Shown piece by piece: positions 35,677 through 49,551 of a stretch of 64,000 bases of DNA. This DNA is from a virus (taxonomy: Duplodnaviria; Heunggongvirae; Uroviricota; Caudoviricetes): IMG/VR virus record IMGVR_UViG_3300016667_000484, positions 1 to 64,000 of that record; one strand, 5' to 3'. The notes below the pieces were generated by a model, which was given only the letters and a program-made list of their open reading frames with translations, ran no database searches and was not told the DNA's origin. Both the position numbers and the translations under genes were made by a program. How positions within the stretch are numbered: position 1 is the stretch's first letter; each line of letters begins with the position of its first letter.

Positions 35677-36066
35677 TCAACCAGCCGATCGAGTGATGAA
35701 GTTCACTCTCACTTTGGTAGGCTTAAAGTACTTCTCGATCATGTCTTGAGCAACACCGATGTCGACTGGTTTGCACGAGAAGATGTCGAAATATGCATCG
35801 CCGTTTGAGTCGACGAGATGACCGCTGATGTTGCTGGTCTCGATCATCTGACAGAAACTGATGCCTGCTTTGTCAGGTGCATGAGTGGCAAAATGTTCAA
35901 TCATTGGTTCACCAAACGCGACCATGTCGATCGCCGGAACAAGTTCTTTGATGAAGTTGTATACGTTTTCTTTGCTTGCAATCAATGCTTTGTCACAAGC
36001 ACCACAGTCAAACATCGCATGATAACCCCAGTACGCCATCTCACACCTCTCATTGTTGGTGCTCAT
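35677..36066 (-). CDS. S-adenosylmethionine decarboxylase proenzyme-like (SpeH class, pyruvoyl)
   Basis: IETSNISGHLV ... YFDIFSC resembles the AdoMetDC ESH cleavage region and DIFTCG motif. 129 aa. Confidence 0.55.
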   Translation of the reverse strand: MSTNNERCEMAYWGYHAMFDCGACDKALIASKENVYNFIKELVPAIDMVAFGEPMIEHFATHAPDKAGISFCQMIETSNISGHLVDSNGDAYFDIFSCKPVDIGVAQDMIEKYFKPTKVRVNFITRSAG

Positions 36067-36135
36067 AAGGTGAATCGAACACCTATCAACGGAGTACGAA
36101 ACCGTTGTAATGCCATTATACTATATGAGCGTTGT

Positions 36136-36211
36136 TGGTGCTGCAGGAGGGAATCGAACCCACGACCTGATGCTTACAAGGCAACTGCTCTACCGACTGA
36201 GCTACTACAGC
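36136..36211 (-). tRNA. tRNA-Thr(TGT)
   Basis: Hand-folded cloverleaf. Acceptor GCUGUAG/CUGCAGC, D-arm GCUC..GAGC, anticodon loop CUUGUAA, T-loop UUCGAUU, CCA encoded. Confidence 0.75.
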
Positions 36212-36217
36212 GTTATT

Positions 36218-36290
36218 TGGAGCGGGTAGCCGGAATCGAACCGGTCTCCTACAGCTTGGAAGGCTGCCTGGCTACCATAGCCTTACCCGC
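36218..36290 (-). tRNA. tRNA-Gly(TCC)
   Basis: Acceptor GCGGGUA/UACCCGC, anticodon loop CUUCCAA. It resembles T4 tRNA-Gly. TATAAATA at 36299-36306 lies just 5' of it. Confidence 0.8.
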
Positions 36291-36298
36291 GTTATTCT

Positions 36299-36306
36299 TA
36301 TTTATA
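36299..36306 (-). promoter_or_regulatory. T4-type late promoter TATAAATA immediately 5' of the tRNA-Gly/tRNA-Thr pair
   Basis: tatttata on the plus strand reads TATAAATA on the minus strand, 9 nt upstream of the tRNA-Gly 5' end. Confidence 0.5.
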
Positions 36307-36553
36307 CTTGATGCTTCCACTCAACACCATCGTAGTCAAGGTTTTTTGCGATGGTGGAATAGAATTGCCGTTGAGCGTCTTGGAACGCATCCTTGTCAGT
36401 ACTGAGTACAGTTACATTGATGGGTTCAAGGGAATTCTTTTTGTAGGGCATAGCGATAAACGTTCGCTTCTTCACACCCTTCTTCATCAGAAGTTTGCCA
36501 TAACCATATGGCTTGTTGTTCAAGATGTCTTCGAGTTCTTCACGGTTCAGCAT
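36302..36553 (-). CDS. hypothetical protein
   Basis: 83-aa ORF. Confidence 0.5.
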   Translation of the reverse strand: MLNREELEDILNNKPYGYGKLLMKKGVKKRTFIAMPYKKNSLEPINVTVLSTDKDAFQDAQRQFYSTIAKNLDYDGVEWKHQV

Positions 36554-36771
36554 TAGTACGATCCGATACCTTTTCGAGCTGGTTTCATTTCATTCCAAGA
36601 GAGATAGCTCTCGATGATCTTGCCTTTATAGTCGAAAGCATGCTTGACATCGAAGTTGTTCATCGCGTGTTCGACGATCGCCTTCTTTGTGATCTTGCCA
36701 TACTCAGCTTTGATCACTTCATCATCAACTTCAACCGAGATGGTAACAGTGACGTGGACGGCGTGCTTCAT
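36553..36771 (-). CDS. hypothetical protein
   Basis: 72-aa ORF. A TTGACA-type promoter lies upstream at about 36810-36830. Confidence 0.5.
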   Translation of the reverse strand: MKHAVHVTVTISVEVDDEVIKAEYGKITKKAIVEHAMNNFDVKHAFDYKGKIIESYLSWNEMKPARKGIGSY

Positions 36772-37241
36772 CTATGCTCTCTTCTATTGATAGAATCAGC
36801 TTACACCATATCCACGTCAATGTCAACTAGTTTATGCGCAGTTGGTTACTACATTTCCAACGACAGTGTTACGACCTGTCAGCAAGGATAGCCGGCATGT
36901 TCAGTTATCCTATACCCATCGGACGGTACATGCAAGTCCCGATGGAGCTCGTTGTTTCCTACGCAACGTCTGGTACATTTTAGATAGTAGATTTAGATTT
37001 ACTATGGTAGTCTTATATTACAGTAGTCTATTATAAGGTGACTTCTCATCTGTCGCGAAGTTTTCTCGTGGGACCAGTAGACCACGGTCTTTTCCAGCGG
37101 TGATCTAGCAGTGCCTGGACATCACAATTCTAAGTCGTACGCCAGATGCTAGATCACTTGAGATCTTTTTACCTTCGACCGAGACGATCGGTCTGACTAA
37201 TACAATTAGTCAACCCTAACCGATACGAAACCTTTATCGTA

Positions 37242-37613
37242 TCATACATCCGGGCCAGATGTATTCTTTAGCCACTTGTCAAACTGTTCGTCTGGAAGTG
37301 GTTTGTGCACAGTCATACTTGGGTAGACTCGAACTTCGGTCATTCCGAGAGCAGCTTTCGCTTTGATCACTGCTGATTGCTGGTCACTATCATTCTCATC
37401 GAATGGATTCTTCTCTGGCGCAGTGAATGGCTTTCCATTCAAGTAAGCGTACGCGATGAGAAGTCCACGTACTTCTGAGCGTTCTTTTACTAACGCGTAC
37501 TGCGCTTCAGCTTGAGGACCATAATGGTCAACATGCTTTCGTGCTTGACGCTTGCTGTCTTTGATGTCAATCGCCAGAGTCTTAAGTCGTGCTTTGATTT
37601 CTTGCTTGTTCAT
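37242..37613 (-). CDS. hypothetical protein
   Basis: RBS AAGGA before MNKQEIK. Confidence 0.5.
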   Translation of the reverse strand: MNKQEIKARLKTLAIDIKDSKRQARKHVDHYGPQAEAQYALVKERSEVRGLLIAYAYLNGKPFTAPEKNPFDENDSDQQSAVIKAKAALGMTEVRVYPSMTVHKPLPDEQFDKWLKNTSGPDV

Positions 37614-37956
37614 GATGCATTCCTTCTGAATTTTGTTTTCTTGTGAGATTAGTCGTAGTAGGTATCGGTACAACTGTCTCATGAAGGTGCATCCCGAATG
37701 GTGGCTAACCCATTCTCGATCAAAAGCGAACACTTACGAATCTTGATCGCCCCTTTCGTTGCAGGGTTATCAGGAGTCTCTTTCGTGCTCCAGCCTTTGA
37801 GGCATTCCACATGGTTCACGTAGAATGTTTGGCCTTTTGCTTTAAGAACCCACATAGGGATCGTAGCGTCTTCAAGGTGTTTCTTGTTGAAGTGAAATAT
37901 AACTTCAGTATTTTCGATAATCTAGGACATTTATATGCTCCATGTTGAAGTGTAAG

Positions 37957-37964
37957 TATAAATA
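37957..37964 (+). promoter_or_regulatory. TATAAATA late promoter upstream of homing-endonuclease gene 37981
   Basis: Exact octamer, 16 nt before the ATG. Confidence 0.55.
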
Positions 37965-37980
37965 TATGCAGGAGGTAACA

Positions 37981-38583
37981 ATGACAACACCATACACATA
38001 TCTAGTAGGATGGTCAAACTATGACCTTTGGTATTATGGCGTAAGATTCGCCAAAGGCTGTAACCCTAATGATTTATGGGTTACATATTTCACATCATCT
38101 AATCGGGTCAAGCACACCCGAGAACAATACGGTGAACCAGATGTTGTTGAGATTAGACGCGTTTTTAAGAATCAAGATTCTGCTAGAGTTTGGGAACACA
38201 AAGTGTTAAAAAGAATGAAAGTCATCAAAAATAGCAAATGGTTGAACCAAACAGATAATGTATCAATTGGGATGGATGTTCAAACTAGAATCAAAATCTC
38301 AAACACTAAGAAAGGCCGACCTAACAGCGAAAGCCATAATAGAAAGATAGGCGACTTTCATCGTGGAAAGATTGAATCCGCTGAAACAAGGCTCAAAAAG
38401 TCGTTGTCAAGAACAGGTAAAACCCATTCAGACGAAACTTTAAGAAAGCTATCAGAAAACTCCGGAAGAGCAAAACCTGTTGAAGTCAATGGTGTTATGT
38501 ATAGAAGCCTTAAACATGCTGCACAAACGCTATTCCCAGACTCTCCAGATATTCGAAAGGTTAAACGTTTACTCGCTACCTGA
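37981..38583 (+). CDS. homing endonuclease-like protein (GIY-YIG/Seg-like)
   Basis: YTYLVGWSNYDLWYYGVRFAKG N-terminus and NUMOD-like repeats. TATAAATA at 37957-37964. RBS aggagg. Confidence 0.6.
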   Translation: MTTPYTYLVGWSNYDLWYYGVRFAKGCNPNDLWVTYFTSSNRVKHTREQYGEPDVVEIRRVFKNQDSARVWEHKVLKRMKVIKNSKWLNQTDNVSIGMDVQTRIKISNTKKGRPNSESHNRKIGDFHRGKIESAETRLKKSLSRTGKTHSDETLRKLSENSGRAKPVEVNGVMYRSLKHAAQTLFPDSPDIRKVKRLLAT

Positions 38584-38606
38584 GTCAGTTTCCTTTGTTA
38601 AGTGAA

Positions 38607-38682
38607 TGGTTGCCCCGGCGGGAATCGAACCCGCAACCGAGTGGTTTAGAAGCACCTGCTCCACCAATTGAGCTACGGGGCC
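38607..38682 (-). tRNA. tRNA with anticodon CTA (amber-suppressor-like)
   Basis: Acceptor, D-arm (GCUC/GAGC) and T-arm (GCGGG UUCGAUU CCCGC) are good. The anticodon loop UUCUAAA is fixed by the flanking arms. G1.A72 and C31.C39 are mismatched. Confidence 0.55.
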
Positions 38683-39251
38683 AAGCTGGTTCTCACACTT
38701 TGAACCGAATGTCGTCTAGAACTGAGTGACCCGCCTTTCGGCTACTATACATAGGTATCTAGATCGAACAATAGTAAGGTGACAGGATTTATCCTCGATT
38801 CCTCCGACACTGAGATGACTGGATGGTCGTCGTCCTTGTCGAGGCATTACCTGTCTCTATGATCATGGTTTTTACACCAAGATTTGTTGCAGTACCCATC
38901 CGAAACTGGTAAGCGGCGGTTCTATTGCGAAAGTCAGTTGCAGGAACTTACCAAGAAAGATTACGCCGAACAGTAGTTGAAGTTAACAGAATGTTTGCCT
39001 ACTCTCTATTTTATGTGGGAGAATCGAAAGCCACGTGCGTTTACCAATTAAACAGTATGTTTTGATTGATTGCTGTACACATTCTAAATTCTGGTGTCGG
39101 CTTCAGGTTATCACATTAACTTAGCCCAATCTTCACGCGAAGGGTACCGACATATTGGTGGACCTGCACGGTTACGATCCGTGTCCTCTACATTGCAAGT
39201 GTAGAATGCTCCCATTATCACCACAGGCCCGTGTTGAGGTTACCCTGACCA

Positions 39252-39328
39252 GTCCATTTTAAGTTTGGACAAACTTGGTGTCACCACCGGGAGTACCAGT
39301 CCATTTTGAGTTTGGACAAACTTGGGGC
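39252..39328. repeat. two direct copies of a 31-bp unit containing the palindrome AAGTTTGGACAAACTT
   Basis: cagtccatttt(a/g)agtttggacaaacttgg occurs at 39252-39282 and 39298-39328. Confidence 0.6.
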
Positions 39329-39445
39329 TGAAAAGCCACTCCACCACCTGCTTTTACGAAAACAGGAAAATTCGTCAGGATCGTTTTTGTCCGCTAAGAC
39401 ATGCATTGATTTAGCGTTTTGGTTTGCTGAACCGATCCTATATTT

Positions 39446-39522
39446 TGGTCCGGCATGTAGGGATCGAACCTACGACCTCTTGATCCCAAATCAAGCGCGC
39501 TCCCAGACTGCGCTAATGCCGG
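39446..39522 (-). tRNA. tRNA-Pro(TGG)
   Basis: Anticodon stem CUUGA/UCAAG, loop UUUGGGA, T-loop UUCGAUC. Confidence 0.75.
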
Positions 39523-39585
39523 ATAATTCTAAAAGAAGAGGCACCGTTACTACAACGAGGCTGCCGTGTTTATCCTCTTCTCAAT

Positions 39586-39668
39586 TTGGCATACGTGGGA
39601 GGAATCGAACCCCTGGCGGACGGTTTTGGAGGCCGTTGTTAGCACCAGCTAACTATACGCTCCACGTA
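39586..39668 (-). tRNA. tRNA-Trp(CCA) with atypical D-arm
   Basis: Perfect acceptor AUACGUG/CACGUAU. Anticodon arm like E. coli tRNA-Trp (CUCCAAAACCG). 83 nt, because the D region forms an unusual 6-bp hairpin GUUAGC-UGGU-GCUAAC. Confidence 0.55.
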
Positions 39669-39685
39669 TATATTCTTTGGCTCCC

Positions 39686-39720
39686 AGTGTTGGGCTCGAA
39701 CCAACGACCCGGTGATTATA
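39686..39720 (-). pseudogene. tRNA 3'-half fragment (T-arm plus acceptor 3' strand), similar to the tRNA-Asn at 40374
   Basis: tggctcccagtgttgggctcgaaccaacgacccg matches the tggctcccagtgtagggctcgaacctacgacccg 3' end of tRNA-Asn. No 5' half. Confidence 0.5.
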
Positions 39721-39767
39721 TCCAGTCTAACTTTGGATGCGTTGGAGAGGATTTGAATAGTAATTTA

Positions 39768-40250
39768 TCAATCCCATATTTTTTTCCAGCTGTGTTCGTA
39801 AGCAGAATAATCCTGACCGTGAGATTTAGAAAGAGCATCTGCGTGCTCTGATGCTTCTTTGGCGTTTTTAATATGTGTTTTATGCTCAGCAGTGAGACGA
39901 TCAACAACTCGTTTACTGTAATCTCTAGATTCAGATCCAAGGGCAGGATTTTCAGATCGTTTTTTATGGAAATTGAGCTCTCTAACTCTTTCTCGTGAAT
40001 AACGTAAATGCGCCGAAACATGATGTTGCAAAGCTTTATGATGTGCATCAGATAATTCTACATGCATTTTATATTCTGGAGTTTTTTTCTTTTTGGCGTC
40101 AGCAAGACGACGCGCTCTTACATCGTGGATAGAACTTTTAACTTGATGTTCCTGAGCTTTTAGTATGTGGGCGTGTTCCTGAGCTTTTTCGTACTCAGAT
40201 CTATTATCAGTAACATAACTATCTGTTAATAATTGATAAAAATTTTTCAT
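39768..40250 (-). CDS. hypothetical His/Lys-rich protein in an AT-rich insert
   Basis: 160 aa. Local GC is markedly lower than the flanks. TATAAATA at 40277-40284. Confidence 0.5.
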   Translation of the reverse strand: MKNFYQLLTDSYVTDNRSEYEKAQEHAHILKAQEHQVKSSIHDVRARRLADAKKKKTPEYKMHVELSDAHHKALQHHVSAHLRYSRERVRELNFHKKRSENPALGSESRDYSKRVVDRLTAEHKTHIKNAKEASEHADALSKSHGQDYSAYEHSWKKIWD

Positions 40251-40276
40251 TAATCTTCCTTCCAGAGCTTATTGTT

Positions 40277-40284
40277 TATTTATA
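40277..40284 (-). promoter_or_regulatory. TATAAATA late promoter upstream of the AT-rich ORF 39768-40250
   Basis: Exact octamer on the minus strand. Confidence 0.5.
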
Positions 40285-40373
40285 AATTTACACCGTTATG
40301 TGGAACCAAAGGAACCTCCGATTTACTGGTTATGAGCCAGTCGAGATGCCTCTTCTCTACCCCGCAAAAATTT

Positions 40374-40449
40374 TGGCTCCCAGTGTAGGGCTCGAACCTA
40401 CGACCCGCGCATTAACAGTGCGCTGCTCTACCAACTGAGCTAACGAGGA
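40374..40449 (-). tRNA. tRNA-Asn(GTT)
   Basis: Anticodon stem GCGCA/UGCGC, loop CUGUUAA, T-loop UUCGAGC. Confidence 0.75.
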
Positions 40450-40454
40450 ACGAT

Positions 40455-40558
40455 CTCTGTTTCTAACTACACCGGCTAACTTCGGATCCTTGGCCTAGGC
40501 GTTCTAGTAGTTAGCAACTCACCCGTCGGTGTAGTTAGAAACAGAAACTCTACTTTTA
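40455..40558. repeat. nested inverted-repeat element (19-bp perfect outer stem)
   Basis: tctgtttctaactacaccg ... cggtgtagttagaaacaga encloses gctaact...agttagc and the ggatcc/cctagg palindromes. A third copy of tagttagaaacag lies at 40680-40697. TATAAATA at 40756-40763 points into it. Confidence 0.55.
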
Positions 40559-40900
40559 ACTAAACACAAGCCGCCCTGATTTCGCGTGTATTTTACACCG
40601 TTTGACCATCATTCGCACGTCTTGCTAGATGCGGCGCCCACCGTAGGTAAGTCTACTTTCAAGGCCAATTACGACAAGTGTTTAGTTAGAAACAGAGGTT
40701 GGAGTTTCCGCTTTCTTTAAGACCGCTACGGTGTGCGCTAAACACCAACTCTGTTCTATTTATACTCATCGGGTCTTACGGGTTTGTCCCACCCCGATCA
40801 TAATCTATCAATCAAGATTTACTGGTTCATCACCTACTTGATCTTCTCACCTTATAGAGACAATCTAAACCAACTCGATCTAGATGTCAACTACTTTTTT

Positions 40901-40995
40901 CTGTTTTCTTTTATACACCGAGGAATCGAACCTCCTTGCCTTGCCGTTGCGGGGCCTGTGCTTTCCAGTACACCAAGTGTATAAAAGAAAACAGA
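40901..40995 (-). pseudogene. degenerate tRNA-like element enclosed by a perfect 20-bp inverted repeat
   Basis: ttctgttttcttttatacac ... gtgtataaaagaaaacagaa flank a T-arm-like GGAGGUUCGAUUCCUC and a CCGCAAC loop. There is no proper anticodon stem. Confidence 0.45.
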
Positions 40996-41241
40996 AGCGG
41001 CCAGGGACTCGAGTCGACGAGTTTCTCTACCGGATGCACATGTTAGCTCATTTGTGCTTGCAGAGCTTTTGCTCTGGATGGTCGCCAGTCCATCTTTCCT
41101 TCAAGTAGCGCATTAGCGATATGCTATGGCCACCAGCTTCTGTTACCTGATTTTCAAAGAGCAAGGAAGCTCAGGTTGGTTACCGTCTGCGTTCCTTATA
41201 TGTACAATCTATACTGTTCTACAGGAATGTCAACCAGTATT

Positions 41242-41547
41242 TTAGTCGCGACCGTAATCTTTACGCATTTGTTTGTAACCGGCATGAGTATGAGGATACT
41301 CGTCATAGTTCATCATGTTGTGTGCTTTCATCACATGTTCTACACTACCTTTGATCCCAACGTTGTCTACTCCACCACCACCTTTGCCGATGTGATGGTG
41401 TGTAACAGTGATCGAGTTTCCGGCGTGTTTCTTAAGATAGTTCTCGATCCCAGCTTTACGCTTCTCTGGATCTTTGCCATTTGCGTCGATGTCGAGACTA
41501 TGTTCGACATGATCGGTCTGTTCGAATAGTTGTTTGAACGTTTTCAT
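41242..41547 (-). CDS. hypothetical His/Gly-rich protein
   Basis: 101 aa. RBS AGAGGAG. Confidence 0.5.
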   Translation of the reverse strand: MKTFKQLFEQTDHVEHSLDIDANGKDPEKRKAGIENYLKKHAGNSITVTHHHIGKGGGGVDNVGIKGSVEHVMKAHNMMNYDEYPHTHAGYKQMRKDYGRD

Positions 41548-41591
41548 GGTTTACTCCTCTGGTTAACCTAAATTCTATTTATTTAATGCCG

Positions 41592-41819
41592 TCAACCAGT
41601 ATTTTTCGATTTCCGTACTTTTTTCTTCTGATCACGCATGAGGTGTAAATGCTTTTGATACAGATGCTCTTCTTCGCGTTCTTGGCGAGACTCTCGAATC
41701 GCTTTAATGGCTTTGACCATTCGACGATGGGCTCGAGCCACGAGTGATCGTTGGAATCGATCTTTGCGAGAAGGTTTTTCGATACGAATTTCTGCTTCGT
41801 CTGCAGTTACGTCAGTCAT
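41592..41819 (-). CDS. small basic protein
   Basis: 75 aa, Arg/Lys-rich. Confidence 0.45.
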   Translation of the reverse strand: MTDVTADEAEIRIEKPSRKDRFQRSLVARAHRRMVKAIKAIRESRQEREEEHLYQKHLHLMRDQKKKVRKSKNTG

Positions 41820-41842
41820 AACATCACCTCATTGTTGTTATA

Positions 41843-41930
41843 TGGCGGATGGAGGAGGAATCGAACCCCATAGGTTTCCCTATGAACCGCTTTCCAGGCG
41901 GCCTCCCGCACCAGCTAGGAGACTCCATCC
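41843..41930 (-). tRNA. tRNA-Ser(GGA)
   Basis: Type II with long variable arm. Anticodon loop CUGGAAA, G73. Confidence 0.75.
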
Positions 41931-41949
41931 ATGCTTAGAGGTATGTTAT

Positions 41950-42037
41950 TGGCAGATGATAAGAGAATCGAACTCTCGACGAACTAACGCCGGACCTGTT
42001 TTCGAGGCAGGGTGTAGCACCAGCTACTCTATCATCT
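41950..42037 (-). tRNA. tRNA-Ser(CGA)
   Basis: Type II. Anticodon loop CUCGAAA, G73. D region has the GUAGC-UGGU-GCUAC hairpin variant. Confidence 0.65.
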
Positions 42038-42038
42038 A

Positions 42039-42128
42039 TGGCGGACACGGCAGGATTCGAACCTGCGGACCCCTTTCGGGGCCGACGGTTTAGCAAACCG
42101 CTGGTTTAAGCCACTCACCCACGTGTCC
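42039..42128 (-). tRNA. tRNA-Ser(GCT)
   Basis: Type II. Anticodon stem GCGGU/ACCGU, loop UUGCUAA, G73. Confidence 0.75.
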
Positions 42129-42134
42129 ATTGTT

Positions 42135-42211
42135 TGGTGCCCTTGGTCGGACTCGAACCGACACTTTCCGGAGTTTGAAGCCGGTGACTCTACCAATTGG
42201 CCTACAAGGGC
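42135..42211 (-). tRNA. class-I tRNA with leucine anticodon CAA (a UCA reading cannot be excluded)
   Basis: Acceptor GCCCUUG/CAAGGGC, A73, short variable loop, D region UAGGCCAAUUGGUAGAGUC. Anticodon region CCGGCUUCAAACUCCGG. The best 7-nt loop is UUCAAAC. Confidence 0.55.
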
Positions 42212-42213
42212 AA

Positions 42214-42480
42214 TTACTTGTCGAGCTGTTTCAGCACTTCTCGTGCCTTCTCTCGGAAGTCGGCGTCAGTGACACCTTCTTCGTCGACTTTGTTCTTGAG
42301 CGTATATTTGATGCCTTCGTATCGATACAGTGCTTCTTCCATCGCCGAAGCATGGAACTGAATCCGTTCAATCGCAGCCGGAAGCATCGAGAAGTCATGT
42401 GTAACAAGCATCTTACGAAGGTATTCGAGTTCAGTGCAGATGTAGCGATCAACGTTGATCGTGTACGGTACTTTCGACAT
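42214..42480 (-). CDS. hypothetical protein
   Basis: Start moved to MSKVPY (RBS GAGGATGAG) so it does not overlap the tRNA at 42500-42576. Confidence 0.5.
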   Translation of the reverse strand: MSKVPYTINVDRYICTELEYLRKMLVTHDFSMLPAAIERIQFHASAMEEALYRYEGIKYTLKNKVDEEGVTDADFREKAREVLKQLDK

Positions 42481-42499
42481 CTCATCCTCATTTTGAAAT

Positions 42500-42576
42500 T
42501 GGTGCCCATGGAGGGACTCGAACCCCCAACATGCGCGTTCTAAGCGCGCCGACTCTACCAATTGGCCTACATGGGC
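42500..42576 (-). tRNA. class-I tRNA with leucine anticodon TAG
   Basis: Perfect anticodon stem GCGCG/CGCGC with loop CUUAGAA. A73, short variable loop AUGUU. Confidence 0.7.
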
Positions 42577-42581
42577 ATGTC

Positions 42582-42656
42582 TGGTAGTCCGTGACGGGAT
42601 CGAACCATCGACCTTCTCCGTGTAAAGGAGTTGCTCTACCGCTGAGCTAACGGACC
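42582..42656 (-). tRNA. tRNA-Val(TAC)
   Basis: Anticodon loop UUUACAC, acceptor with G1.U72. Confidence 0.7.
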
Positions 42657-42663
42657 ATTATTT

Positions 42664-42737
42664 TGGCGACCGTGAAGGGAATCGAACCCTCAACCTCGGA
42701 TAGACAATCCGGTATGATACCACTTCATCACACGGCC
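42664..42737 (-). tRNA. tRNA-Asp(GTC)
   Basis: Anticodon loop UUGUCUA, G73. Confidence 0.7.
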
Positions 42738-42752
42738 AATTTCTTATTCAAT

Positions 42753-43022
42753 CTACACCGAATCTTTGTCGGTGTCAACCACCTTTTTCAAGTAGTCGTA
42801 AACTTCTTCGTAAGAGTAGAAGACCTTAGTTCCTTGCTTGCTCGCGACTCGTACGGTTGAGCCGAAACATTGCACAAGACCAAAGCCTGGGAATCTACCG
42901 TTACCTTTGATCCTTGCGTTCCAGCGTGTGCGGCGACGAACAGGATCGTGGAACTGATGCTCTATGTTTAAGATCGAGCTCACAGTGTCATAGAAGACAC
43001 GTTTCTCATCGTTTGTTTTCAA
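42753..43022 (-). CDS. hypothetical protein
   Basis: 89-aa ORF. Confidence 0.5.
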   Translation of the reverse strand: MKTNDEKRVFYDTVSSILNIEHQFHDPVRRRTRWNARIKGNGRFPGFGLVQCFGSTVRVASKQGTKVFYSYEEVYDYLKKVVDTDKDSV

Positions 43023-43242
43023 TACTCAACTTCTTCTGTTTGATGAAGTTTGCAAGGTCACTCGGTTTAATCTGAAACGAAATGTCCCGGTAACCCGGAT
43101 CATACCACTGTTGTGATCGGTTCACGTGATCGTTACCAACTTCTTCGTTCTTGAACGCTCCGACGTGGCGAATCTTGGTGTGAGTCTTTCCAATGGAATA
43201 CTCAAACACTTGACCATCTACTTCGAGCTTACGATACGACAT
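43006..43242 (-). CDS. hypothetical protein
   Basis: 78-aa ORF. Confidence 0.5.
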   Translation of the reverse strand: MSYRKLEVDGQVFEYSIGKTHTKIRHVGAFKNEEVGNDHVNRSQQWYDPGYRDISFQIKPSDLANFIKQKKLSIENKR

Positions 43243-43275
43243 TACAAATCTCCTTACGGGTGACTAGGCGTTGTG

Positions 43276-43349
43276 CCTATGAATTTGGAGCGGGTAACGG
43301 GAATCGAACCCGTGCGTTCTCCTTGGCAAGGAGGTAGGCTACCTCTACA
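43276..43349 (-). tRNA. tRNA-Gly(GCC)
   Basis: Acceptor GCGGGUA/UACCCGC, loop UUGCCAA, U73. Confidence 0.75.
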
Positions 43350-43354
43350 TCATA

Positions 43355-43430
43355 CCCGCATTAATGGTGGACCCTGTCGGGATCGAACCGACGACCTGAA
43401 GCTTGCAAAGCTACTGCTCTCCCATCTGAG
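43355..43430 (-). tRNA. tRNA-Ala(TGC)
   Basis: GGGCUCUUAGCUCAG with a G3.U70 pair, loop UUUGCAA, A73. Confidence 0.8.
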
Positions 43431-43601
43431 CTAAGAGCCCGTATTCGTTGACCAGAGGGGTGTGAGTCGCTATGCTCAGTGACCGTTTCTCTGGCCTTAT
43501 TCGACCGGAGGGGGACCTATTCCCTCGCGGTGAGTAGTGAGTGCGTATCCTTCAAAGACATAAGGTCGATAGTCTCTGGACAGTGGGACTTCACTACTAA
43601 T

Positions 43602-43691
43602 TGGCGGAGACGGTGAGATTCGAACTCACGGAACGCTTTCACGTTCGGCCGCTTTCAAGGCGGCAGCGATAGACCACTCTGCCACATCTCC
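43602..43691 (-). tRNA. tRNA-Ser(TGA)
   Basis: Type II. Anticodon stem GCCGC/GCGGC, loop CUUGAAA, G73. Confidence 0.75.
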
Positions 43692-43693
43692 AG

Positions 43694-44047
43694 TTATTTC
43701 TTCTTGATATTCCTAGCTTTGTATGTATCAAGTTGTGAATCACAGTTAGAACACACAAATCTTAAATTATCAAGACGATTATCATTATGAACACCGTTTA
43801 TATGATCAAGAATCAGAGGCATTGGTTTGCCATTCCATTCTGGTCCAATAGCGCAAATCGCGCATCGGTATTCTATCATGTTGTTTTGAATTATTCGCCT
43901 TTTCAGATTATGCCTAGCATATGTACTGTTTTCGACGAATACTTCATCATCAGTAAGTTTGATACCGTAACCATTCACCTTAGTGCCGGCACCTCTTGGT
44001 GGAACTTTCTTGCCTTTGTTCCAAGGTATCGAACCTTTAGATGTCAA
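43694..44047 (-). CDS. HNH homing endonuclease
   Basis: LDHINGVHNDNRLDNLRFVCSNCDS is an HNH motif. It sits between tRNAs. Confidence 0.7.
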   Translation of the reverse strand: MTSKGSIPWNKGKKVPPRGAGTKVNGYGIKLTDDEVFVENSTYARHNLKRRIIQNNMIEYRCAICAIGPEWNGKPMPLILDHINGVHNDNRLDNLRFVCSNCDSQLDTYKARNIKKK

Positions 44048-44063
44048 GTTACGTCTCCATATT

Positions 44064-44140
44064 TGGTTGCGGTGGGCAGGAATCGAACCTGCGTAATCGG
44101 CTTATGAGACCGTGCTGGAACCACCTCCAGTCTACCCCGC
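44064..44140 (-). tRNA. tRNA with anticodon CAT (Met or Ile2); acceptor pairing imperfect
   Basis: D-arm CUGG/CCAG, anticodon loop CUCAUAA, T-arm GCAGG UUCGAUU CCUGC. The acceptor has 2 mismatches. The shared motif ATTTTTGCGGGGTA lies at its 5' end. Confidence 0.5.
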
Positions 44141-44264
44141 AAAAATCGCCCGGTTTGTTTCTTCGTCCTCATGCGGTCTATTCGGCCCGCGAGCAACTAC
44201 CTACCAGCCGGAACTGGCGATTCTGTTTTGAGCGATACACCACCTCCAAGGTAACAACCGAGCC

Positions 44265-44375
44265 ACTAGTGGCGCAGGAGGGAATCGAACCCTACTTGAT
44301 GTATCCGTCAAAACAGAATTTCTGCGATTCTGTTTTCAGCTACATCAAGTGGACTACCACAAGCAATTACGCCAC
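44265..44375 (-). pseudogene. tRNA-like element interrupted by a long AU-rich hairpin
   Basis: T-arm-like AGGGUUCGAUUCCCU and a 3' CCA, but the body contains the nested hairpin CUUGAUGUA[GCUGAAAACAGAAU-CGCAGAA-AUUCUGUUUUGACGGA]UACAUCAAG. Confidence 0.4.
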
Positions 44376-44430
44376 CCAATGTTTCCCCACCAGGTTTTGA
44401 TGTATGTGAAAACAGAATTTCTTCTGTTTC
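44295..44430. repeat. recurring AAACAGAA-loop-TTCTGTTT hairpins
   Basis: aaaacagaatttctgcgattctgtttt at 44301-44329 and gaaaacagaatttcttctgtttc at 44408-44430. Related copies at 54807-54820, 54898-54922, 40901-40910 and 40985-40995. Confidence 0.5.
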
Positions 44431-44526
44431 TAAGTTTTCAAAGAACGTTGAGGTTTACCACCTCATGTATCCTATTTATACCATCTACTGAGCAATGTCA
44501 ACAACTTTTTTCGTCAGGATCGCTTT

Positions 44527-44590
44527 TTTGCCGCGGATTTGAACCGCACACTTTTCTTGGAAGGAAAATGCTCTACCGTTGAGCTATGCA
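44527..44590 (-). pseudogene. tRNA-like pseudogene (intact D-arm, anticodon arm with UCC, T-arm; acceptor stem disrupted)
   Basis: GCUC AACGGUA GAGC / UUUUC CUUCCAA GAAAA / UGCGG UUCAAAU CCGCG. No pairing acceptor and no CCA. Flanked by the repeated motif atgcaatttt(t/g)ttgctg. Confidence 0.4.
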
Positions 44591-44617
44591 ATTTTTTGCT
44601 GAAACGATCCTATAATC

Positions 44618-44995
44618 TTATAGGCTCTTGCCCGCGATGTCTTTCATCGCCATGTCGATCTTGTACACACGCTTCAGAGGAAGAATAGCACAACGAGTGG
44701 TGTCAGTGTACTGCCGAGTCTTGTAGTTGTACGACTTAGAAGGAACACCATCAACACGAACAGCTTTGACGTACTGCTTCATCTCGTGCTTAACGTTACC
44801 CTTTTCGTCTCGAATGTATTGACCATTCTCGTCTTTCAGATAGTGACGACCAATCGAGTAGTAAACGCCAGCGAACTTGCCAGTCCGGACTCGAACACTG
44901 TGACCGTAGCCGGTGCCAACATAGACGACTTCATCACCCGGTTGAATGGTCTGCCCGAGTTCGTTAGTAAATGCTTCTGCGACCAGATCGGCCAT
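44618..44995 (-). CDS. hypothetical protein
   Basis: 125-aa ORF. Confidence 0.5.
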   Translation of the reverse strand: MADLVAEAFTNELGQTIQPGDEVVYVGTGYGHSVRVRTGKFAGVYYSIGRHYLKDENGQYIRDEKGNVKHEMKQYVKAVRVDGVPSKSYNYKTRQYTDTTRCAILPLKRVYKIDMAMKDIAGKSL

Positions 44996-45301
44996 GTGAT
45001 TCTCCGTTGTTCATGATGTATATTCAGGTTGGTTGGTTACTTGTTTGTTGCCTTACCATTTGGCTATCTACGCAAGAAGCGTGGAATCGGATTCGAACCG
45101 ATAATACACAAAGTGTGTAAGTTTGCTGAACCCAACCTATATTCTTTCTGGATCAACTTTTTTGCTACGTGTGCATCTGTTACACCAATGCCCCATAGTG
45201 AAATTGGTGGGGCACCTAGGATTTGCACCTAGACCACGATCTCCGAATGATATGCAATTTTGTTGCTGTAATGATCCAATATTCGTTAGGCTATGCCGCC
45301 G

Positions 45302-46744
45302 TTAGACGGCATAGCGATCCTTAAGCAGAGTCTTCAGCATTACGTTGTAAGGCGTGAACTCTTCGAGGTCGTTCGCAAGGACCGACTTCATGATGGCAGG
45401 CGAGAAGCCCGAGACCAAGCAGACACCCTTGTCGTCGAAACGAACCGGAGTGTTGCTGTCGCCGTAAGGAGACAGGTTCCAGAAGACGATCTTCGGCACA
45501 GCGTAGCCGGCCTTAGCGTACTTCCGAGCAATCATCTCCTGAGCGGAGTCATCGTAGCGAACGCAGGAGTTGAACTGCATGTCCGAGAGGATCAGCAGCA
45601 TCTCCGGCATGTCCTCTTGCGAGACCTTGCCCTTGATTGCGATGTCGAGCAACATGTCGAACGCTGCATGCAGGTTCGTGCTACCCGCGACGATCTCAGG
45701 GATCGACTTCAGACGCTGAGTCAGCGAGCCCTTAGGCGTAACCAACTTCGGAGTCGAGTCGAAGATCATCATGAGGTCCTTGAAGTTGGACGTGTTCTTT
45801 TCAGAAACGTACAGACCCAGACCCAGTGCGACCTCGATAGGCTGAGGAGCACCGTTACCACCACGGTTCATACCGTAACGGTTGAAAGGCATGTAGCCCA
45901 TCGAACCAGAGGTGTCGACGATCGGGAAGATCTTCGCGTTACCGACGAAGTTAGGCAGAGCCTTCCACTGCTCGTCAGCAACAGCCGAGTTACCATTCGT
46001 CACCGAACGGATAACGTCGTACGGATAGACCGCACCAGCGTTGATCTTGACCTTCACGGTACGCTCAGCCTCAGGCTTCTGCAGCTCACGAATGTAAGCC
46101 GAGTAAGCTTCCTTAGCGTTGCGGCCGAAAGCCTTCTGATAGCGAGCCGATGCAACCGAAGGAACATGCGAGAAGTTAATCTCGTTCCAGTTCTTGGCAC
46201 ACATCTGGGTCTCGACGACCGAGGTCAGTTCGACAACCAGCTTACGATAAGACTTTGGCGACAGGCCGAGGAACTTGGTCAGTTCGACTGCGACTGGACC
46301 CTTACGAGGCATCCACTTCGCGCAGAGGCCGTTCTTGTCTTCGATGAGAGCCTTGCGGATCATCTCGAAAGCAGCCTTGCGGTTGAAGTGCTCGGTGTAG
46401 GCGAACAGGTCGTCCCAACGGCCAAGCTCAGGAATGCGAGCCATCAGCTTACCAGCGGTAGCAGGGTTCAACGTTTCCAGCTTCGACAGAAGGTTGCGGA
46501 ATTGAGCACGCTCACCGGCACCTTCGCGAATGTCGCGAGTCCACAGAAGAGCACGCAGTGCGTGCTCTTCGTTTTCGGCCAGAGCCGAGAGGAATTGATC
46601 GGTCATATCCTTACCACGGTAAGAACCGACCTTGCCGAAGAAGTCCAAGACTGCCGATGCCGAAGTAGCACGGGCCTTCATACCATTCGCGGTACGAGCA
46701 GGAGCTTCATTCTTGTAGTTGAGGGCTGCGTTTGCAAAAGACAT
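45302..46744 (-). CDS. vWA-domain protein (DUF2828 / Ro60-TROVE-like architecture)
   Basis: MIDAS motif IVDTSGSMGYMP in the C-terminal half and a long alpha-rich N-terminal half. 480 aa. tRNA-like motifs lie in its 5' leader. Confidence 0.7.
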   Translation of the reverse strand: MSFANAALNYKNEAPARTANGMKARATSASAVLDFFGKVGSYRGKDMTDQFLSALAENEEHALRALLWTRDIREGAGERAQFRNLLSKLETLNPATAGKLMARIPELGRWDDLFAYTEHFNRKAAFEMIRKALIEDKNGLCAKWMPRKGPVAVELTKFLGLSPKSYRKLVVELTSVVETQMCAKNWNEINFSHVPSVASARYQKAFGRNAKEAYSAYIRELQKPEAERTVKVKINAGAVYPYDVIRSVTNGNSAVADEQWKALPNFVGNAKIFPIVDTSGSMGYMPFNRYGMNRGGNGAPQPIEVALGLGLYVSEKNTSNFKDLMMIFDSTPKLVTPKGSLTQRLKSIPEIVAGSTNLHAAFDMLLDIAIKGKVSQEDMPEMLLILSDMQFNSCVRYDDSAQEMIARKYAKAGYAVPKIVFWNLSPYGDSNTPVRFDDKGVCLVSGFSPAIMKSVLANDLEEFTPYNVMLKTLLKDRYAV

Positions 46745-46852
46745 AGTGTATTCCTTTCTGGTTGGATTTACGGATTCGAACCGCTAAGTTTGTTTACAAG
46801 ACAAATTGGGAACCATTCCCGGTTTTTTGTTGCTGAAACCAACCGTTTAGTT

Positions 46853-47329
46853 TCAAGATTTAGATCTACCTTTACGAAAATTTTCTGGAATTGGATCAGT
46901 AGATCTTATTGATTTGGTGATCACACCATCAGTTATCCAGATTCTGCCCGATGATGCTTTATTGCCGATAGTACCTTTAGCAAATGTATTGCCTCTATTG
47001 CCTATCATGTGGCTATTTCCAATCAGATAGGAATAATCGATATTCTTACTGGCGTCTCCACCGTTTACGGCATTCTCCTCTATCAGATTTGCCCATTCAC
47101 TTGAATTGACTATATCATTGTTTTTAGAGAATGTCAAGGCAAAGTCTTTAGCCTCTTCAGTATTTTGATACTCTGCGATAACAACTGTATCTATGTCGTA
47201 CCCATGAACTTTAAGGTGTGCTTTCCAATACTTACCGCTTCCACGATATTTGTATGGATCACGAACAGTCTTGCCAAAATACTTCAGCTTTGTGACGCGA
47301 TGCGTCTTTACGTACAGATAAATAGTCAT
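46853..47329 (-). CDS. GIY-YIG homing endonuclease
   Basis: MTIYLYVKTHRVTKLKYFGKT...YKYRGSG is a paralogue of the 24145 gene. RBS gggag. TATAAATA at 47394-47401. Confidence 0.65.
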   Translation of the reverse strand: MTIYLYVKTHRVTKLKYFGKTVRDPYKYRGSGKYWKAHLKVHGYDIDTVVIAEYQNTEEAKDFALTFSKNNDIVNSSEWANLIEENAVNGGDASKNIDYSYLIGNSHMIGNRGNTFAKGTIGNKASSGRIWITDGVITKSIRSTDPIPENFRKGRSKS

Positions 47330-47393
47330 ATGCTGGAAACTCCCGTATGTTTCTAGAGCTAGCAGACATTGGCGTGTCGTGGCTAGCACTTTC

Positions 47394-47401
47394 TATTTAT
47401 A
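47394..47401 (-). promoter_or_regulatory. TATAAATA late promoter upstream of GIY-YIG gene 46853-47329
   Basis: Exact octamer on the minus strand. Confidence 0.55.
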
Positions 47402-47534
47402 CGAAAGTTTCATCTGGATGACGTTTGTCAGCTACTACAAATTATCAGTTTGTTGCTTGAGTTATTTGCGGAAGTCATCCAATTTTCTTCATAGTCTCAA
47501 TCTATACTAAGTTTGTATAGATGTCAACCACTTT

Positions 47535-48101: not shown

Positions 48102-48174
48102 TTAGTTCTCCTTCTAAGGTGAATACCCTAGAAGTCGTCGTAAAACTTTCGATAGTGCATCTCGTGCCCTTTCT

Positions 48175-48366: not shown

Positions 48367-48390
48367 CTTTTGTTTTCCGATAAGTAATAT

Positions 48391-48570: not shown

Positions 48571-48585
48571 AACCACTCCATGATT

Positions 48586-48669: not shown

Positions 48670-48775
48670 ATGTTCTTTGAGCGACCTAACAGACGATCTG
48701 AATGGGCATCGGCTTACGCCTGAAGGTTCCTGGTTTGTCGCTCGCTACTACGAACCTTTTTTCGCATTATATTTA

Positions 48776-49533: not shown

Positions 49534-49551
49534 CGATCAATGTTCTCTATG

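What the first reader, a model, noticed from the sequence alone, without database searches (positions are those of the whole stretch)
38607..38682. Amber-suppressor-like tRNA (anticodon CTA)
The acceptor, D-arm and T-arm pin the anticodon loop to UUCUAAA, giving anticodon 5'-CUA-3', which pairs with UAG. U35 and the weak G1.A72 pair are partially Gln-like, while A73 is not. Phage suppressor tRNAs are linked to stop-codon recoding, or to suppressing host nonsense-based defences. None of the ORFs in this window requires TAG read-through, so any function would lie elsewhere, for example in late genes.
Basis: seen in the sequence. Interest (0 to 1): 0.55.

Follow-up and report, generated by a model that had tools for sequence, protein, structure and literature searches.

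The report
Amber-suppressor tRNA in standard-code phage
A large T4-like phage carries a well-formed, evolutionarily conserved tRNA that should read the UAG stop codon as an amino acid, yet the phage otherwise uses the normal genetic code, so this is a real suppressor tRNA of a known kind with no identified purpose.

Summary
Window 38607-38682 (minus strand) is a canonical 76-nt tRNA with anticodon CUA, found by ARAGORN and by Rfam (54.7 bits). It lies in an array of 44 tRNA genes in an uncultured T4-like phage (source contig 195 kb).

It is not a decayed gene. Three orthologues in other metagenomes keep CUA and A73 and carry compensatory acceptor-stem changes. Thirteen distinct CUA tRNAs from related phages show strong covariation (14 of 21 pairs) with an invariant U33-CUA-A37. 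The G1·A72 mismatch is a substitution (C72A) private to this copy.

The recoding interpretation is not supported. In 62% of the source genome, including lysis and replication genes, 155 deposited gene calls end in TGA 80, TAA 68 and TAG 7. In-frame TAGs show no excess. Capsid, scaffold and protease genes of close relatives are intact. Relatives with and without the tRNA use TAG stops equally.

The body is closest to tRNA-Lys/Arg, not Trp or Gln. The charged amino acid is unresolved; Lys or Gln is inferred.

Precedents exist in standard-code phages XacN1, CBB and fHe-Yen9-04. A GIY-YIG homing endonuclease gene is inserted about 20 nt downstream of the tRNA. Verdict: new member of a known kind, with target and benefit unknown.

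The parts
38607..38682 (-). Amber-suppressor-type tRNA gene, 76 nt, anticodon CUA, A73, genomically encoded CCA (38607-38609)
   Evidence: ARAGORN; Rfam tRNA model 54.7 bits with alignment; sequence read directly
38647..38649 (-). Anticodon C34-U35-A36 (plus strand reads TAG), in loop U32-U33-C-U-A-A37-A38
   Evidence: alignment. U33-C34-U35-A36-A37 is invariant in 13 distinct family members
38611..38611 (-). A72, which creates the G1·A72 mismatch. It is a derived C-to-A substitution private to this copy
   Evidence: Orthologue L090 has C72 with an otherwise identical acceptor stem. L091 and L092 have G1-C72 with compensatory 3:70 and 4:69 changes. 12 of 13 family members have G1-C72
38644..38652 (-). 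C31·C39 mismatch closing the anticodon loop, giving a 4-bp anticodon stem. It is conserved in the orthologues
   Evidence: NC marks. It is identical in L090, L091 and L092. L052 and L054 have C·A at the same position
38683..38790 (-). 5' leader of about 105 nt, nearly invariant among the four orthologous contigs. It contains a GCC-GNAA-GGC hairpin in which only the tetraloop N varies. Function unknown
   Evidence: Alignment. The block 38606-38910 is 96% identical to L090, against about 83% in the flanks. No Rfam family matches and no covariation data are available
37942..38583 (+). SegE-like GIY-YIG homing endonuclease gene, convergent with the tRNA and inserted about 20 nt beyond its CCA end
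   Evidence: PHROG 314 homing endonuclease E 7e-20, plus weak SegE_GIY-YIG and NUMOD3 Pfam hits. It is absent from L090, L091 and L092; L092 is the empty site
36057..56249 (-). tRNA gene array that contains the suppressor: 42 ARAGORN calls plus 2 extra Rfam tRNA hits, all on the minus strand, covering every amino acid except Trp, interspersed with homing endonuclease genes and a Ro-like gene
   Evidence: No tRNAs lie outside the array in 111 kb of the contig

Best explanation
This is a functional tRNA gene, maintained by selection, whose anticodon CUA pairs with the UAG stop codon.

It is transcribed with the other 43 tRNAs of a T4-like phage's tRNA array and has an encoded CCA end. It is most likely charged by a host aminoacyl-tRNA synthetase. 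It then competes with release factor 1 at UAG codons during infection.

The phage itself uses the standard genetic code. UAG is a rare but real stop, about 4.5% of genes. The tRNA therefore does not implement a code change. It causes partial read-through of the few phage UAG stops, and of the host's UAG stops. That is cheap for the phage because the extensions are mostly short.

The amino acid inserted is unresolved. The body is closest to tRNA-Lys and tRNA-Arg. By the known E. coli behaviour of CUA tRNAs (U35 together with A73, or with a weak 1:72 pair), lysine or glutamine is most likely.

The gene sits at a hot-spot for homing-endonuclease insertion. It belongs to a family of CUA tRNAs spread patchily among large phages, so it probably moves between phage tRNA clusters.

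Shown: the tRNA, its anticodon, its conservation, and the standard code of the genome parts examined. Inferred: expression, charging, actual suppression, and any benefit.
For: Real tRNA with CUA:
-.

Selection:
- Orthologues L090, L091 and L092 keep CUA, A73 and the whole anticodon arm. L091 and L092 carry compensatory double changes at 3:70 and 4:69.
- Thirteen distinct CUA tRNAs from related phages give 96.6% paired cells, and 14 of 21 pairs have changes on both sides. 0 of 500 shuffles reach the observed values, and slid controls reach at most 52% paired.
- U33-CUA-A37 is invariant.
- These tRNAs are each other's nearest neighbours with the anticodon masked.
- CUA tRNAs occur in 15 of 80 related loci.

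Standard code:
- 155 deposited genes end in TGA 80, TAA 68 and TAG 7.
- In-frame stops with coding-like sequence on both sides: TAG 2, TAA 6, TGA 1.
- Lysis, replication and DNA-modification modules are intact.
- Relatives' gp23, gp22, gp21 and gp55 are intact.
- 40 capsid-module loci show no density gain with a TAG-sense code.
- Relatives with a CUA tRNA have the same share of TAG stops (9%) as those without.
- gp46 ends in TGA in the source and in TAG in L094, so TAG is an ordinary, interchangeable stop.

Body type:
- Isotype HMMs score Lys 41-46 bits, then Arg 39-41, then Met/Ile, for the window group.

Precedent:
- Standard-code phage XacN1 has two CUA tRNAs with no identifiable targets (PMC5852040). 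Atu_ph07 has a UCA suppressor (PMC6102473).
- CBB and fHe-Yen9-04 have annotated CUA tRNAs in tRNA clusters, with endonuclease genes about 0.6-0.8 kb away.

From established knowledge:
- A36-A37-A38 is the MiaA (i6A37) determinant of tRNAs that read U-starting codons.
- CUA tRNAs in E. coli are typically charged with Gln or Lys.
Against: - No expression, charging or suppression data exist.
This is probably most of the structural module. Standard coding there is inferred from relatives that are about 70-80% nt identical, and I could not check whether those relatives carry the tRNA.
- This copy has two helix defects, G1·A72 and C31·C39, which could lower its activity. The first is not shared by orthologues.
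- No benefit of read-through is demonstrated. TAG-terminated ORFs do not have longer open extensions than TAA- or TGA-terminated ones, and no homologue spans either in-frame TAG junction.
- Within the family the discriminator base switches between A and G in near-identical tRNAs (L015 versus L022). That makes any single amino-acid identity uncertain.
Confidence: 0.6

Rival explanations
1. Partial code change. The tRNA serves TAG-to-amino-acid recoding (code-15 style) of a subset of late genes that lie in the 38% of the genome I could not read, as in crAss-like, Lak and other recoded phages.
For: Suppressor tRNAs are strongly associated with recoded phages, and recoding concentrates in structural and lysis genes (Borges et al. 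preprint 10.1101/2021.08.26.457843). TAG is the rarest stop here at 4.5%. About 74 kb of the contig is unseen.
Against: - The lysis cassette, the module most biased towards recoding in that study, is intact, and one of its genes ends in TAG.
- The PAAR spike gene is intact.
- gp23, gp22, gp21 and gp55 are intact in the closest relatives.
- 40 related capsid-module loci show TAG as 10.6% of stops and no density gain with a TAG-sense code.
- GC is 47%, not the low GC linked to recoding.
- No release factor or aminoacyl-tRNA synthetase appears in the gene tables of 121 kb.
Confidence: 0.07
2. Programmed read-through of one or a few specific UAG-terminated genes, phage or host, to make a C-terminally extended protein in a fixed ratio, as in the Qbeta A1 protein.
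For: The family is under selection although the genome is not recoded. Two TAG stops in the window are followed in frame by another coding-like ORF: 11306 (146 aa + 19 codons + 61 aa) and 48391 (80 aa + 8 codons + 63 aa).
Against: - Those two cases are no more than expected from TAA and TGA controls.
- Homologues in relatives cover only the upstream part.
- Extension lengths after TAG do not differ from those after TAA or TGA in the source, the Ro loci or the capsid loci.
- The TAG stop of gp46 is not conserved.
- The XacN1 authors found no targets either.
Confidence: 0.13
3. Passenger or decaying gene. The tRNA spreads with homing endonucleases or by array shuffling and gives the phage no benefit, and this particular copy is on its way to inactivation.
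For: - A GIY-YIG endonuclease gene is inserted about 20 nt from its 3' end, and the flank differs in every orthologous contig.
- Distribution is patchy: 15 of 80 loci, at different positions relative to the Ro gene.
- The closest IMG/VR relatives (L001-L006, L011) lack it within 10 kb of the Ro gene.
- This copy has a private C72A mismatch.
Against: - Compensatory substitutions in orthologues and across the family, together with an invariant anticodon loop, mean that the RNA structure and the CUA triplet are under purifying selection.
- A single terminal mismatch is compatible with function.
- The 5' leader is also conserved.
Confidence: 0.12
4. Non-decoding role. It is a tRNA-shaped RNA used as a decoy or substrate in the conflict over tRNAs (host anticodon nucleases against the phage repair kit), or as a processing or regulatory element of the array transcript.
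For: The phage carries an unusually full tRNA maintenance kit: Rnl1, an Rnl2-like ligase, a Thg1-like enzyme, a CCA-adding enzyme and a Ro-like protein. The tRNA body is Lys/Arg-like, and tRNA-Lys and tRNA-Arg are known nuclease targets (established knowledge).
Against: - The strict invariance of CUA with U33 and A37-A38 across very divergent bodies points to codon reading.
- A decoy would be expected to keep the anticodon that the nuclease targets.
- No defence system is known that acts on CUA tRNAs.
Confidence: 0.08

Closest known systems
CUA suppressor tRNAs of standard-code large phages: Xanthomonas jumbo phage XacN1 (two copies, PMC5852040), Pectobacterium phage vB_PcaM_CBB (KU574722.1 289995-290067, labelled tRNA-Pyl), Yersinia phage fHe-Yen9-04 (LT960551.1 292524-292596, tRNA-Sup-CTA)
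   Same: - A canonical cloverleaf tRNA with anticodon CUA, embedded in a large phage tRNA cluster.
- The genome is read with the standard code, and no target genes have been identified.
- In CBB and fHe-Yen9-04 a homing or HNH endonuclease gene lies within about 0.6-0.8 kb.
- The CBB and Yen9-04 tRNAs are the best cultured-phage matches to the L015-type family member.
   Different: - The host phage here is an uncultured T4-like phage of about 195 kb, not a Rak2-like or XacN1-like jumbo phage.
- The window copy is only about 55-75% similar to them.
- It has A73 with G1·A72 and C31·C39 mismatches.
- I did not test common descent of all these tRNAs beyond nearest-neighbour similarity.
Suppressor tRNAs of stop-codon-recoded phages (crAss-like, Lak, Agate and others; code 15 TAG-to-Gln; Borges et al., Ivanova et al.)
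   Same: A phage-encoded tRNA with anticodon CUA, presumably charged by a host synthetase. TAG is the rarest stop in the genome.
   Different: - There are no in-frame TAG codons in the lysis or replication genes, or in relatives' capsid genes.
- TAG is still used as a stop.
- GC is 47%.
- No phage release factor or synthetase was seen.
- The environment and lineage (T4-like) differ.
Classical bacterial and T4 amber suppressors (E. coli supE/supF/su7; T4 psu1+ tRNA-Ser)
   Same: A tRNA whose anticodon reads UAG and competes with RF1. It is tolerated because UAG stops are rare. A weak 1:72 pair and U35 favour GlnRS mischarging (established knowledge).
   Different: Those are single-step laboratory or spontaneous mutants of a recognisable sense tRNA. 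This one belongs to an old, diversified lineage of CUA tRNAs and has no sense-tRNA twin. No tRNA with the same D and T arms and another anticodon occurs in IMG/VR or in 185,579 bacterial genomes.
T4 tRNA gene cluster with the SegB homing endonuclease (PMC2330249)
   Same: A GIY-YIG Seg-type endonuclease gene sits inside a T4-type tRNA cluster, next to tRNA genes. In T4 it drives preferential inheritance of the tRNA region.
   Different: Cleavage specificity and homing were not tested here. The T4 cluster has 8 tRNAs and no suppressor.

Membership tests
Canonical elongator tRNA | Cloverleaf with a 7-bp acceptor, 4-bp D stem, 5-bp anticodon stem, 5-bp T stem, G18G19, T-loop GTTCRANNC and U33 | tested here: met
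   Rfam RF00005 at 54.7 bits with a full-length alignment and ARAGORN. Two non-canonical pairs: 1:72 and 31:39
Amber suppressor tRNA | Anticodon 5'-CUA-3' at positions 34-36 in a 7-nt loop, with U33 and a purine at 37 | tested here: met
   Loop UUCUAAA in the model alignment. CUA is conserved in 3 orthologues and 12 other family members
Amber suppressor tRNA | It is aminoacylated and inserts an amino acid at UAG in vivo | not testable with these tools
   Requires a reporter assay, tRNA sequencing or mass spectrometry
Amber suppressor tRNA | The gene is maintained (not a pseudogene): structure and anticodon are under purifying selection | tested here: met
   Compensatory 3:70 and 4:69 changes in L091 and L092. 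14 of 21 pairs have double changes and 96.6% of cells are paired
Stop-codon-recoded phage (code 15, TAG as sense) | Conserved genes, especially structural and lysis genes, contain in-frame TAG codons, and coding density rises under a TAG-sense code | tested here: not met
   source, 111 kb; gene tables; relatives' capsid genes; relatives. 38% of the source contig was not seen
Stop-codon-recoded phage (code 15, TAG as sense) | TAG is not used as a terminator | tested here: not met
   7 of 155 deposited genes end in TAG, including one in the lysis cassette
Stop-codon-recoded phage (code 15, TAG as sense) | Accessory code-change genes (RF2, aminoacyl-tRNA synthetase) are sometimes present | tested here: not met
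   No such Pfam families appear in the gene tables of record 8,239-129,135. This feature is optional for the family
tRNA-Pyl (ARAGORN's label) | Atypical fold: 6-bp anticodon stem, 3-nt variable loop, small D loop without G18G19, no TΨC consensus, and co-occurrence with pylS/pylBCD (established knowledge) | tested here: not met
   The sequence has G18G19, GGTTCGATT, a 5-nt variable loop and a 4-5 bp anticodon stem. No Pyl genes appear in the gene tables
tRNA-Trp-derived suppressor (su7 type, CCA to CUA) | The body matches tRNA-Trp of the same phage group or host, with G73 | tested here: not met
   The array lacks tRNA-Trp. However, the Trp HMM is not among the top five for the window group, phage Trp tRNAs are not its neighbours, and the discriminator is A73
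tRNA-Gln-derived suppressor (supE type) | The body matches tRNA-Gln: U1-A72, G73, G2-C71, G3-C70 | tested here: not met
   Gln is not among the top HMM scores. A73 is conserved. G1-C72 is ancestral and the mismatch is private to this copy. GlnRS mischarging remains possible through U35
tRNA-Lys-like body | The highest isotype profile score is to tRNA-Lys, with A73 and U35 | tested here: inconclusive
   Lys scores 41-46 bits against Arg at 39-41 for the window group. Other subfamilies score Arg first. Leave-one-out 1-NN accuracy of the method is about 80%. tRNAscan-SE isotype models were not available

The most novel reading that the evidence does not exclude
A diversified, old lineage of amber-suppressor tRNAs is kept by purifying selection in phages that do not recode their genes: environmental T4-like phages, and perhaps the Rak2-like and XacN1-like jumbo phages. 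If so, UAG read-through would itself be a selected infection function. Examples would be disturbing host protein termination during takeover, rescuing C-to-T-induced amber mutations, or producing a still-unseen extended protein. It would not be merely a stepping stone to code change. Homing endonucleases would move the gene between phage tRNA clusters.
Probability: 0.3. Interest if true: 0.6.

Novelty: new member of a known kind. Interest (0 to 1): 0.36.

Why it matters
Suppressor tRNAs in phages are usually read as markers of alternative genetic codes. Gene callers and annotators may switch codes when they see one.

This case shows a well-conserved CUA tRNA family in T4-like phages whose genes are plainly standard-code. 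Presence of the tRNA alone is therefore not evidence of recoding. It also leaves open why such phages keep an amber suppressor at all.

Cultured carriers exist (CBB, fHe-Yen9-04, XacN1), so that question is testable by deletion and reporter assays.

Tried and rejected
**Trp-derived suppressor.** This was attractive because the array covers 19 amino acids but not Trp, and because no related locus had both a CCA and a CUA tRNA. I rejected it. Profile and nearest-neighbour scores do not place the tRNA with Trp, and A73 is conserved.

**Leu-derived suppressor.** It shares the CAATTGG D-loop with the array's short tRNA-Leu genes and has A73. However, the Leu HMM scores only about 33 bits, against 41-46 for Lys.

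**Sense-tRNA twin or host tRNA.** I searched for a tRNA with the same D and T arms and any anticodon arm. IMG/VR returned only L079's CUA tRNA, and 185,579 bacterial genomes returned nothing.

**Exact copies.** There are none in IMG/VR.

**BLAST against E. coli genomes** to name the isotype was uninformative for a 76-nt divergent query.

**The 'TCA' (opal) tRNAs** that ARAGORN called in L067 and L071 are tRNA-Glu(UUC) in a shifted register.

**Walking to the structural genes of the source contig.**
- Three look-ups failed on start-codon mismatches.
- Beyond record 129 kb the source's proteins were not cluster representatives.
- I therefore used relatives instead.

**The conserved 5' leader** gave no Rfam match and no covariation.

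**Read-through fusion candidates** at 11306 and 48391 have no fused homologues in the held loci.

**Lysidine modification of C34**, which would make it read UAA, was considered because of similarity to CAU tRNAs of T4-like phages. It could not be tested. I judge it unlikely because TAA is 44% of stops.

Full report
**1. The observation**

Window 38607-38682 on the minus strand is a tRNA gene. ARAGORN reports it with anticodon cta at position 34 ('Pyl' is its label for any CUA tRNA). The Rfam tRNA model matches 38610-38682 at 54.7 bits, with a gathering score of 29.

The model alignment fixes the cloverleaf:
- acceptor GGCCCCG/CGGGGCA
- D arm GCUC-AAUUGGUG-GAGC
- anticodon stem GGUGC/CCACU with loop UUCUAAA
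- variable loop CGGUU
- T arm GCGGG-UUCGAUU-CCCGC
- discriminator A73 and an encoded CCA

The anticodon is C34-U35-A36 (window 38649-38647). The fold is not that of tRNA-Pyl, because G18G19, the T-loop consensus and a 5-nt variable loop are all present.

**2. The context**

The tRNA is one of 42 ARAGORN calls plus two further Rfam tRNA hits. All are on the minus strand between 36.0 and 56.3 kb. They cover every amino acid except Trp.

The window encodes ribonucleotide reductase, NAMPT, two RNA ligases, a DNA ligase and a Ro-like protein.

An exact protein look-up identified the source as ena:ERZ27292648:k141_55274, 195,479 bp, with window base 1 at record 27,600. By walking with protein ids I read record 8,239-129,135, which is 62% of the contig. 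That stretch holds:
- rnh, a CCA-adding enzyme, a YqeY-domain protein and a Thg1-like enzyme
- nrdAB, td and frd
- an endolysin/spanin cassette
- gp41, UvsX, gp43, regA, gp62/44, gp45 and gp46
- a dCMP hydroxymethylase-like enzyme and a glucosyltransferase
- PhoH, PAAR and Acb1

This is a T4-like phage. It has no close cultured relative: the best match in INPHARED is 46% aa identity for the Ro-like protein. GC is 47%.

**3. Is the genome recoded?**

No sign of recoding was found.
- Over 155 deposited gene calls the stops are TGA 80, TAA 68 and TAG 7. One of the TAG-terminated genes lies in the lysis cassette.
- In 111 kb I scored every stop codon in all six frames for coding-like codon usage in the 40 codons on each side. 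TAG gave 2 cases, TAA 6 and TGA 1. These are neighbouring genes that happen to share a frame.
- For the two TAG cases (window 11306 and 48391), homologues in related loci cover only the upstream ORF.
- Coding density hardly changes under a TAG-sense code.

I could not reach the structural module of the source contig. In the closest relatives obtainable (L094-L096, about 70-80% nt identity), the following genes are all intact: gp55, gp47, gp46, UvsW, UvsY, a tail-tube-like gene, gp23 (422 aa), the gp22-type scaffold and the gp21 protease. gp46 ends in TAG there and in TGA in the source, so TAG behaves as an ordinary stop.

Forty capsid-module loci from related IMG/VR contigs have TAG as 10.6% of stops and show no gain with a TAG-sense code. 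Among 80 loci centred on the Ro-like gene, those with a CUA tRNA use TAG for 9.1% of stops, compared with 9.3% and 12% in the two groups without one. Open extensions after TAG are not longer than after TAA or TGA.

**4. Is the tRNA decaying?**

It is not.

A search of JGI metagenomes with the anticodon arm found three orthologues. L090 has the same gene order (Pro, Ala, Sup, then Gly-Thr-Thr) and an identical tRNA except for C72, which restores G1-C72. L091 and L092 have acceptor stem GGGTCCG/CGGACCC, with compensatory changes at 3:70 and 4:69. All three keep CUA, A73 and the C31·C39 mismatch. The window's A72 is therefore a private C-to-A substitution.

In the 80 related loci fetched through the Ro-like protein, ARAGORN finds 622 tRNAs. 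Fifteen of them, in fifteen loci, have anticodon CUA. With the anticodon masked, these tRNAs are each other's nearest neighbours.

An alignment of the 13 distinct sequences has U33, C34, U35, A36 and A37 invariant. The cloverleaf is 96.6% paired, and 14 of 21 pairs show changes on both sides. None of 500 shuffles reaches the observed values, and slid controls reach at most 52% paired.

This is a diversified lineage of CUA tRNAs under purifying selection. Its members are not independent recent mutants.

**5. Which amino acid?**

This is unresolved.
- Isotype HMMs built from about 480 phage tRNAs score the window group highest for Lys (41-46 bits), then Arg (39-41), then Met/Ile. Other subfamilies score Arg or Lys first.
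- Trp, Gln, Leu, Ser and Tyr, the classical single-step sources of amber suppressors, never come first.
- No tRNA with the same D and T arms and a different anticodon exists in IMG/VR or in 185,579 bacterial genomes.

From established E. coli work, recalled and not tested here, CUA tRNAs are mostly charged with Gln or Lys through U35. A73 favours Lys, and a broken 1:72 pair favours Gln. A36-A37-A38 is the MiaA determinant shared by tRNAs that read U-starting codons.

Near-identical family members differ at position 73 (G in L015, A in L022). This argues against a strict discriminator-dependent identity.

**6. Local anatomy**

The 305-nt block holding the tRNA and its upstream leader is 96% identical to L090, while the flanks are about 83% identical. 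About 105 nt of leader is nearly invariant in all four contigs. It contains a GCC-GNAA-GGC hairpin in which only the tetraloop N varies. No Rfam family matches it, and there is too little variation to test a fold.

Directly after the CCA the contigs diverge. L092 runs about 20 nt and then continues into the next conserved gene, so it is an empty site. The window has a SegE-like GIY-YIG homing endonuclease gene there (37942-38583, plus strand). L090 and L091 have a different insert. Further GIY-YIG and HNH genes lie within the array. This recalls SegB in the T4 tRNA cluster (PMC2330249).

**7. Comparison with what is known**

Suppressor tRNAs are a hallmark of stop-codon-recoded phages, and are occasionally seen in their standard-code relatives (10.1101/2021.08.26.457843). 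They have also been reported in standard-code phages with many tRNAs:
- XacN1 has two CUA tRNAs, and in-silico read-through of its 18 TAG stops found nothing (PMC5852040).
- The T4-related Atu_ph07 has a UCA suppressor (PMC6102473).

The best cultured-phage matches to the commonest family variant are themselves CUA tRNAs: Pectobacterium phage CBB and Yersinia phage fHe-Yen9-04. Both lie in tRNA clusters, with endonuclease genes about 0.6-0.8 kb away.

The present tRNA is therefore a new member of a known kind. This analysis adds two things: evidence that such tRNAs form a conserved, selected family in environmental T4-like phages, and evidence that they are not tied to recoding.

**8. Verdict**

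- It is a real and most likely functional amber-suppressor tRNA. Confidence is about 0.9 that it is a selected tRNA with anticodon CUA, and about 0.6 for the full explanation given.
- The genome uses the standard code. Confidence is about 0.85, limited by the unseen 38%.
- The inserted amino acid, the targets and the benefit are all unknown.
- Interest is moderate to low. It is a useful caution for code prediction and points to an open question that is experimentally tractable.

Noticed in passing
window 42135-42211, 42500-42576, 49551-49625, 49627-49703, 56092-56168 (all minus strand): Five tRNAs with leucine anticodons (CAA, UAG, CAG, GAG, UAA) are only 75-77 nt long and have 5-nt variable loops. 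They keep a Leu-type D loop (CAATTGGTAGAG) and A73. Only 48586-48669 (GAG) has the long variable arm expected of bacterial tRNA-Leu. In the related loci, 35 of 50 Leu-anticodon tRNAs are short, while all 35 Ser and all 14 Tyr tRNAs are long.
   Followed up: partly
window 38683-38790 (minus strand): The leader of about 105 nt upstream of the suppressor tRNA is nearly invariant in four independent contigs. It contains a GCC-GNAA-GGC hairpin whose only variable base is the tetraloop N. It matches no Rfam family and its function is unknown.
   Followed up: partly
window 37942-38583 (+); also 43694-44047 (-), 46853-47389 (-), 48824-49495 (-): Homing endonuclease genes (GIY-YIG/SegE-like and HNH) are scattered through the tRNA array. 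The first is an insertion about 20 nt beyond the suppressor tRNA, and L092 shows the empty site.
   Followed up: partly
window 45039-45116 (-) and 44527-44591 (-): Just downstream of the Ro-like gene (45302-46744, minus strand) there is a weak, sub-threshold Y-RNA-like (YrlA) hit at 23.4 bits, E 0.03. About 700 nt further on is a tRNA-like element with a defective acceptor stem (Rfam tRNA 40 bits, not called by ARAGORN), which has a counterpart at L001 12184-12255. Together these may be a phage Ro/Y-RNA pair.
   Followed up: partly
window 36057-56249: The array covers 19 amino acids, and tRNA-Trp is the only one missing. No tRNA lies outside the array in 111 kb of the contig. Among related loci, none had both a CCA and a CUA tRNA within 10 kb of the Ro gene.
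   Followed up: partly
window 51427-51511 (-), 52454-52534 (-), 40910-40984 (-): These are odd tRNA calls. A GCA (Cys) tRNA of 85 nt and a GUU (Asn) tRNA of 81 nt both have long variable regions. A third GCA call lacks CCA and has an AT-rich acceptor, so it may be a pseudogene.
   Followed up: no
window 17813-18571 (-); L084 14468-15715 and 15998-16435; window 3767-4912 and 6836-7960 (-): The phage carries an unusually complete tRNA maintenance kit: a Thg1-like 3'-5' polymerase, a CCA-adding enzyme, a free-standing YqeY/GatB-like domain protein, an Rnl2-like ligase and Rnl1, plus the Ro-like protein. The Thg1-like gene ends in a tandem TAG TAG.
   Followed up: no
window 11306 and 17813 (minus strand stops): Two of the few TAG stops are followed by the same motif (TAG nnnTTGACAT). 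It looks like a -35 box for the next gene.
   Followed up: no
L093 14962-15456 and 14659-14958; L088 3859-7745: The source phage also encodes an Acb1-type anti-CBASS protein and a PAAR protein. It has a DNA hypermodification set as well: a dCMP hydroxymethylase-like enzyme, dCMP deaminase, an AGT glucosyltransferase and a DNA methylase.
   Followed up: no
L179 1494-1571 (Erythrobacter phage vB_EliS-L02, unannotated region): The record has no annotated features over a cluster of 19 tRNA genes. Its tRNA-His(GUG) shares about 82% identity over 59 nt with the L015-type CUA tRNA, including the unusual 7-nt variable region.
   Followed up: no
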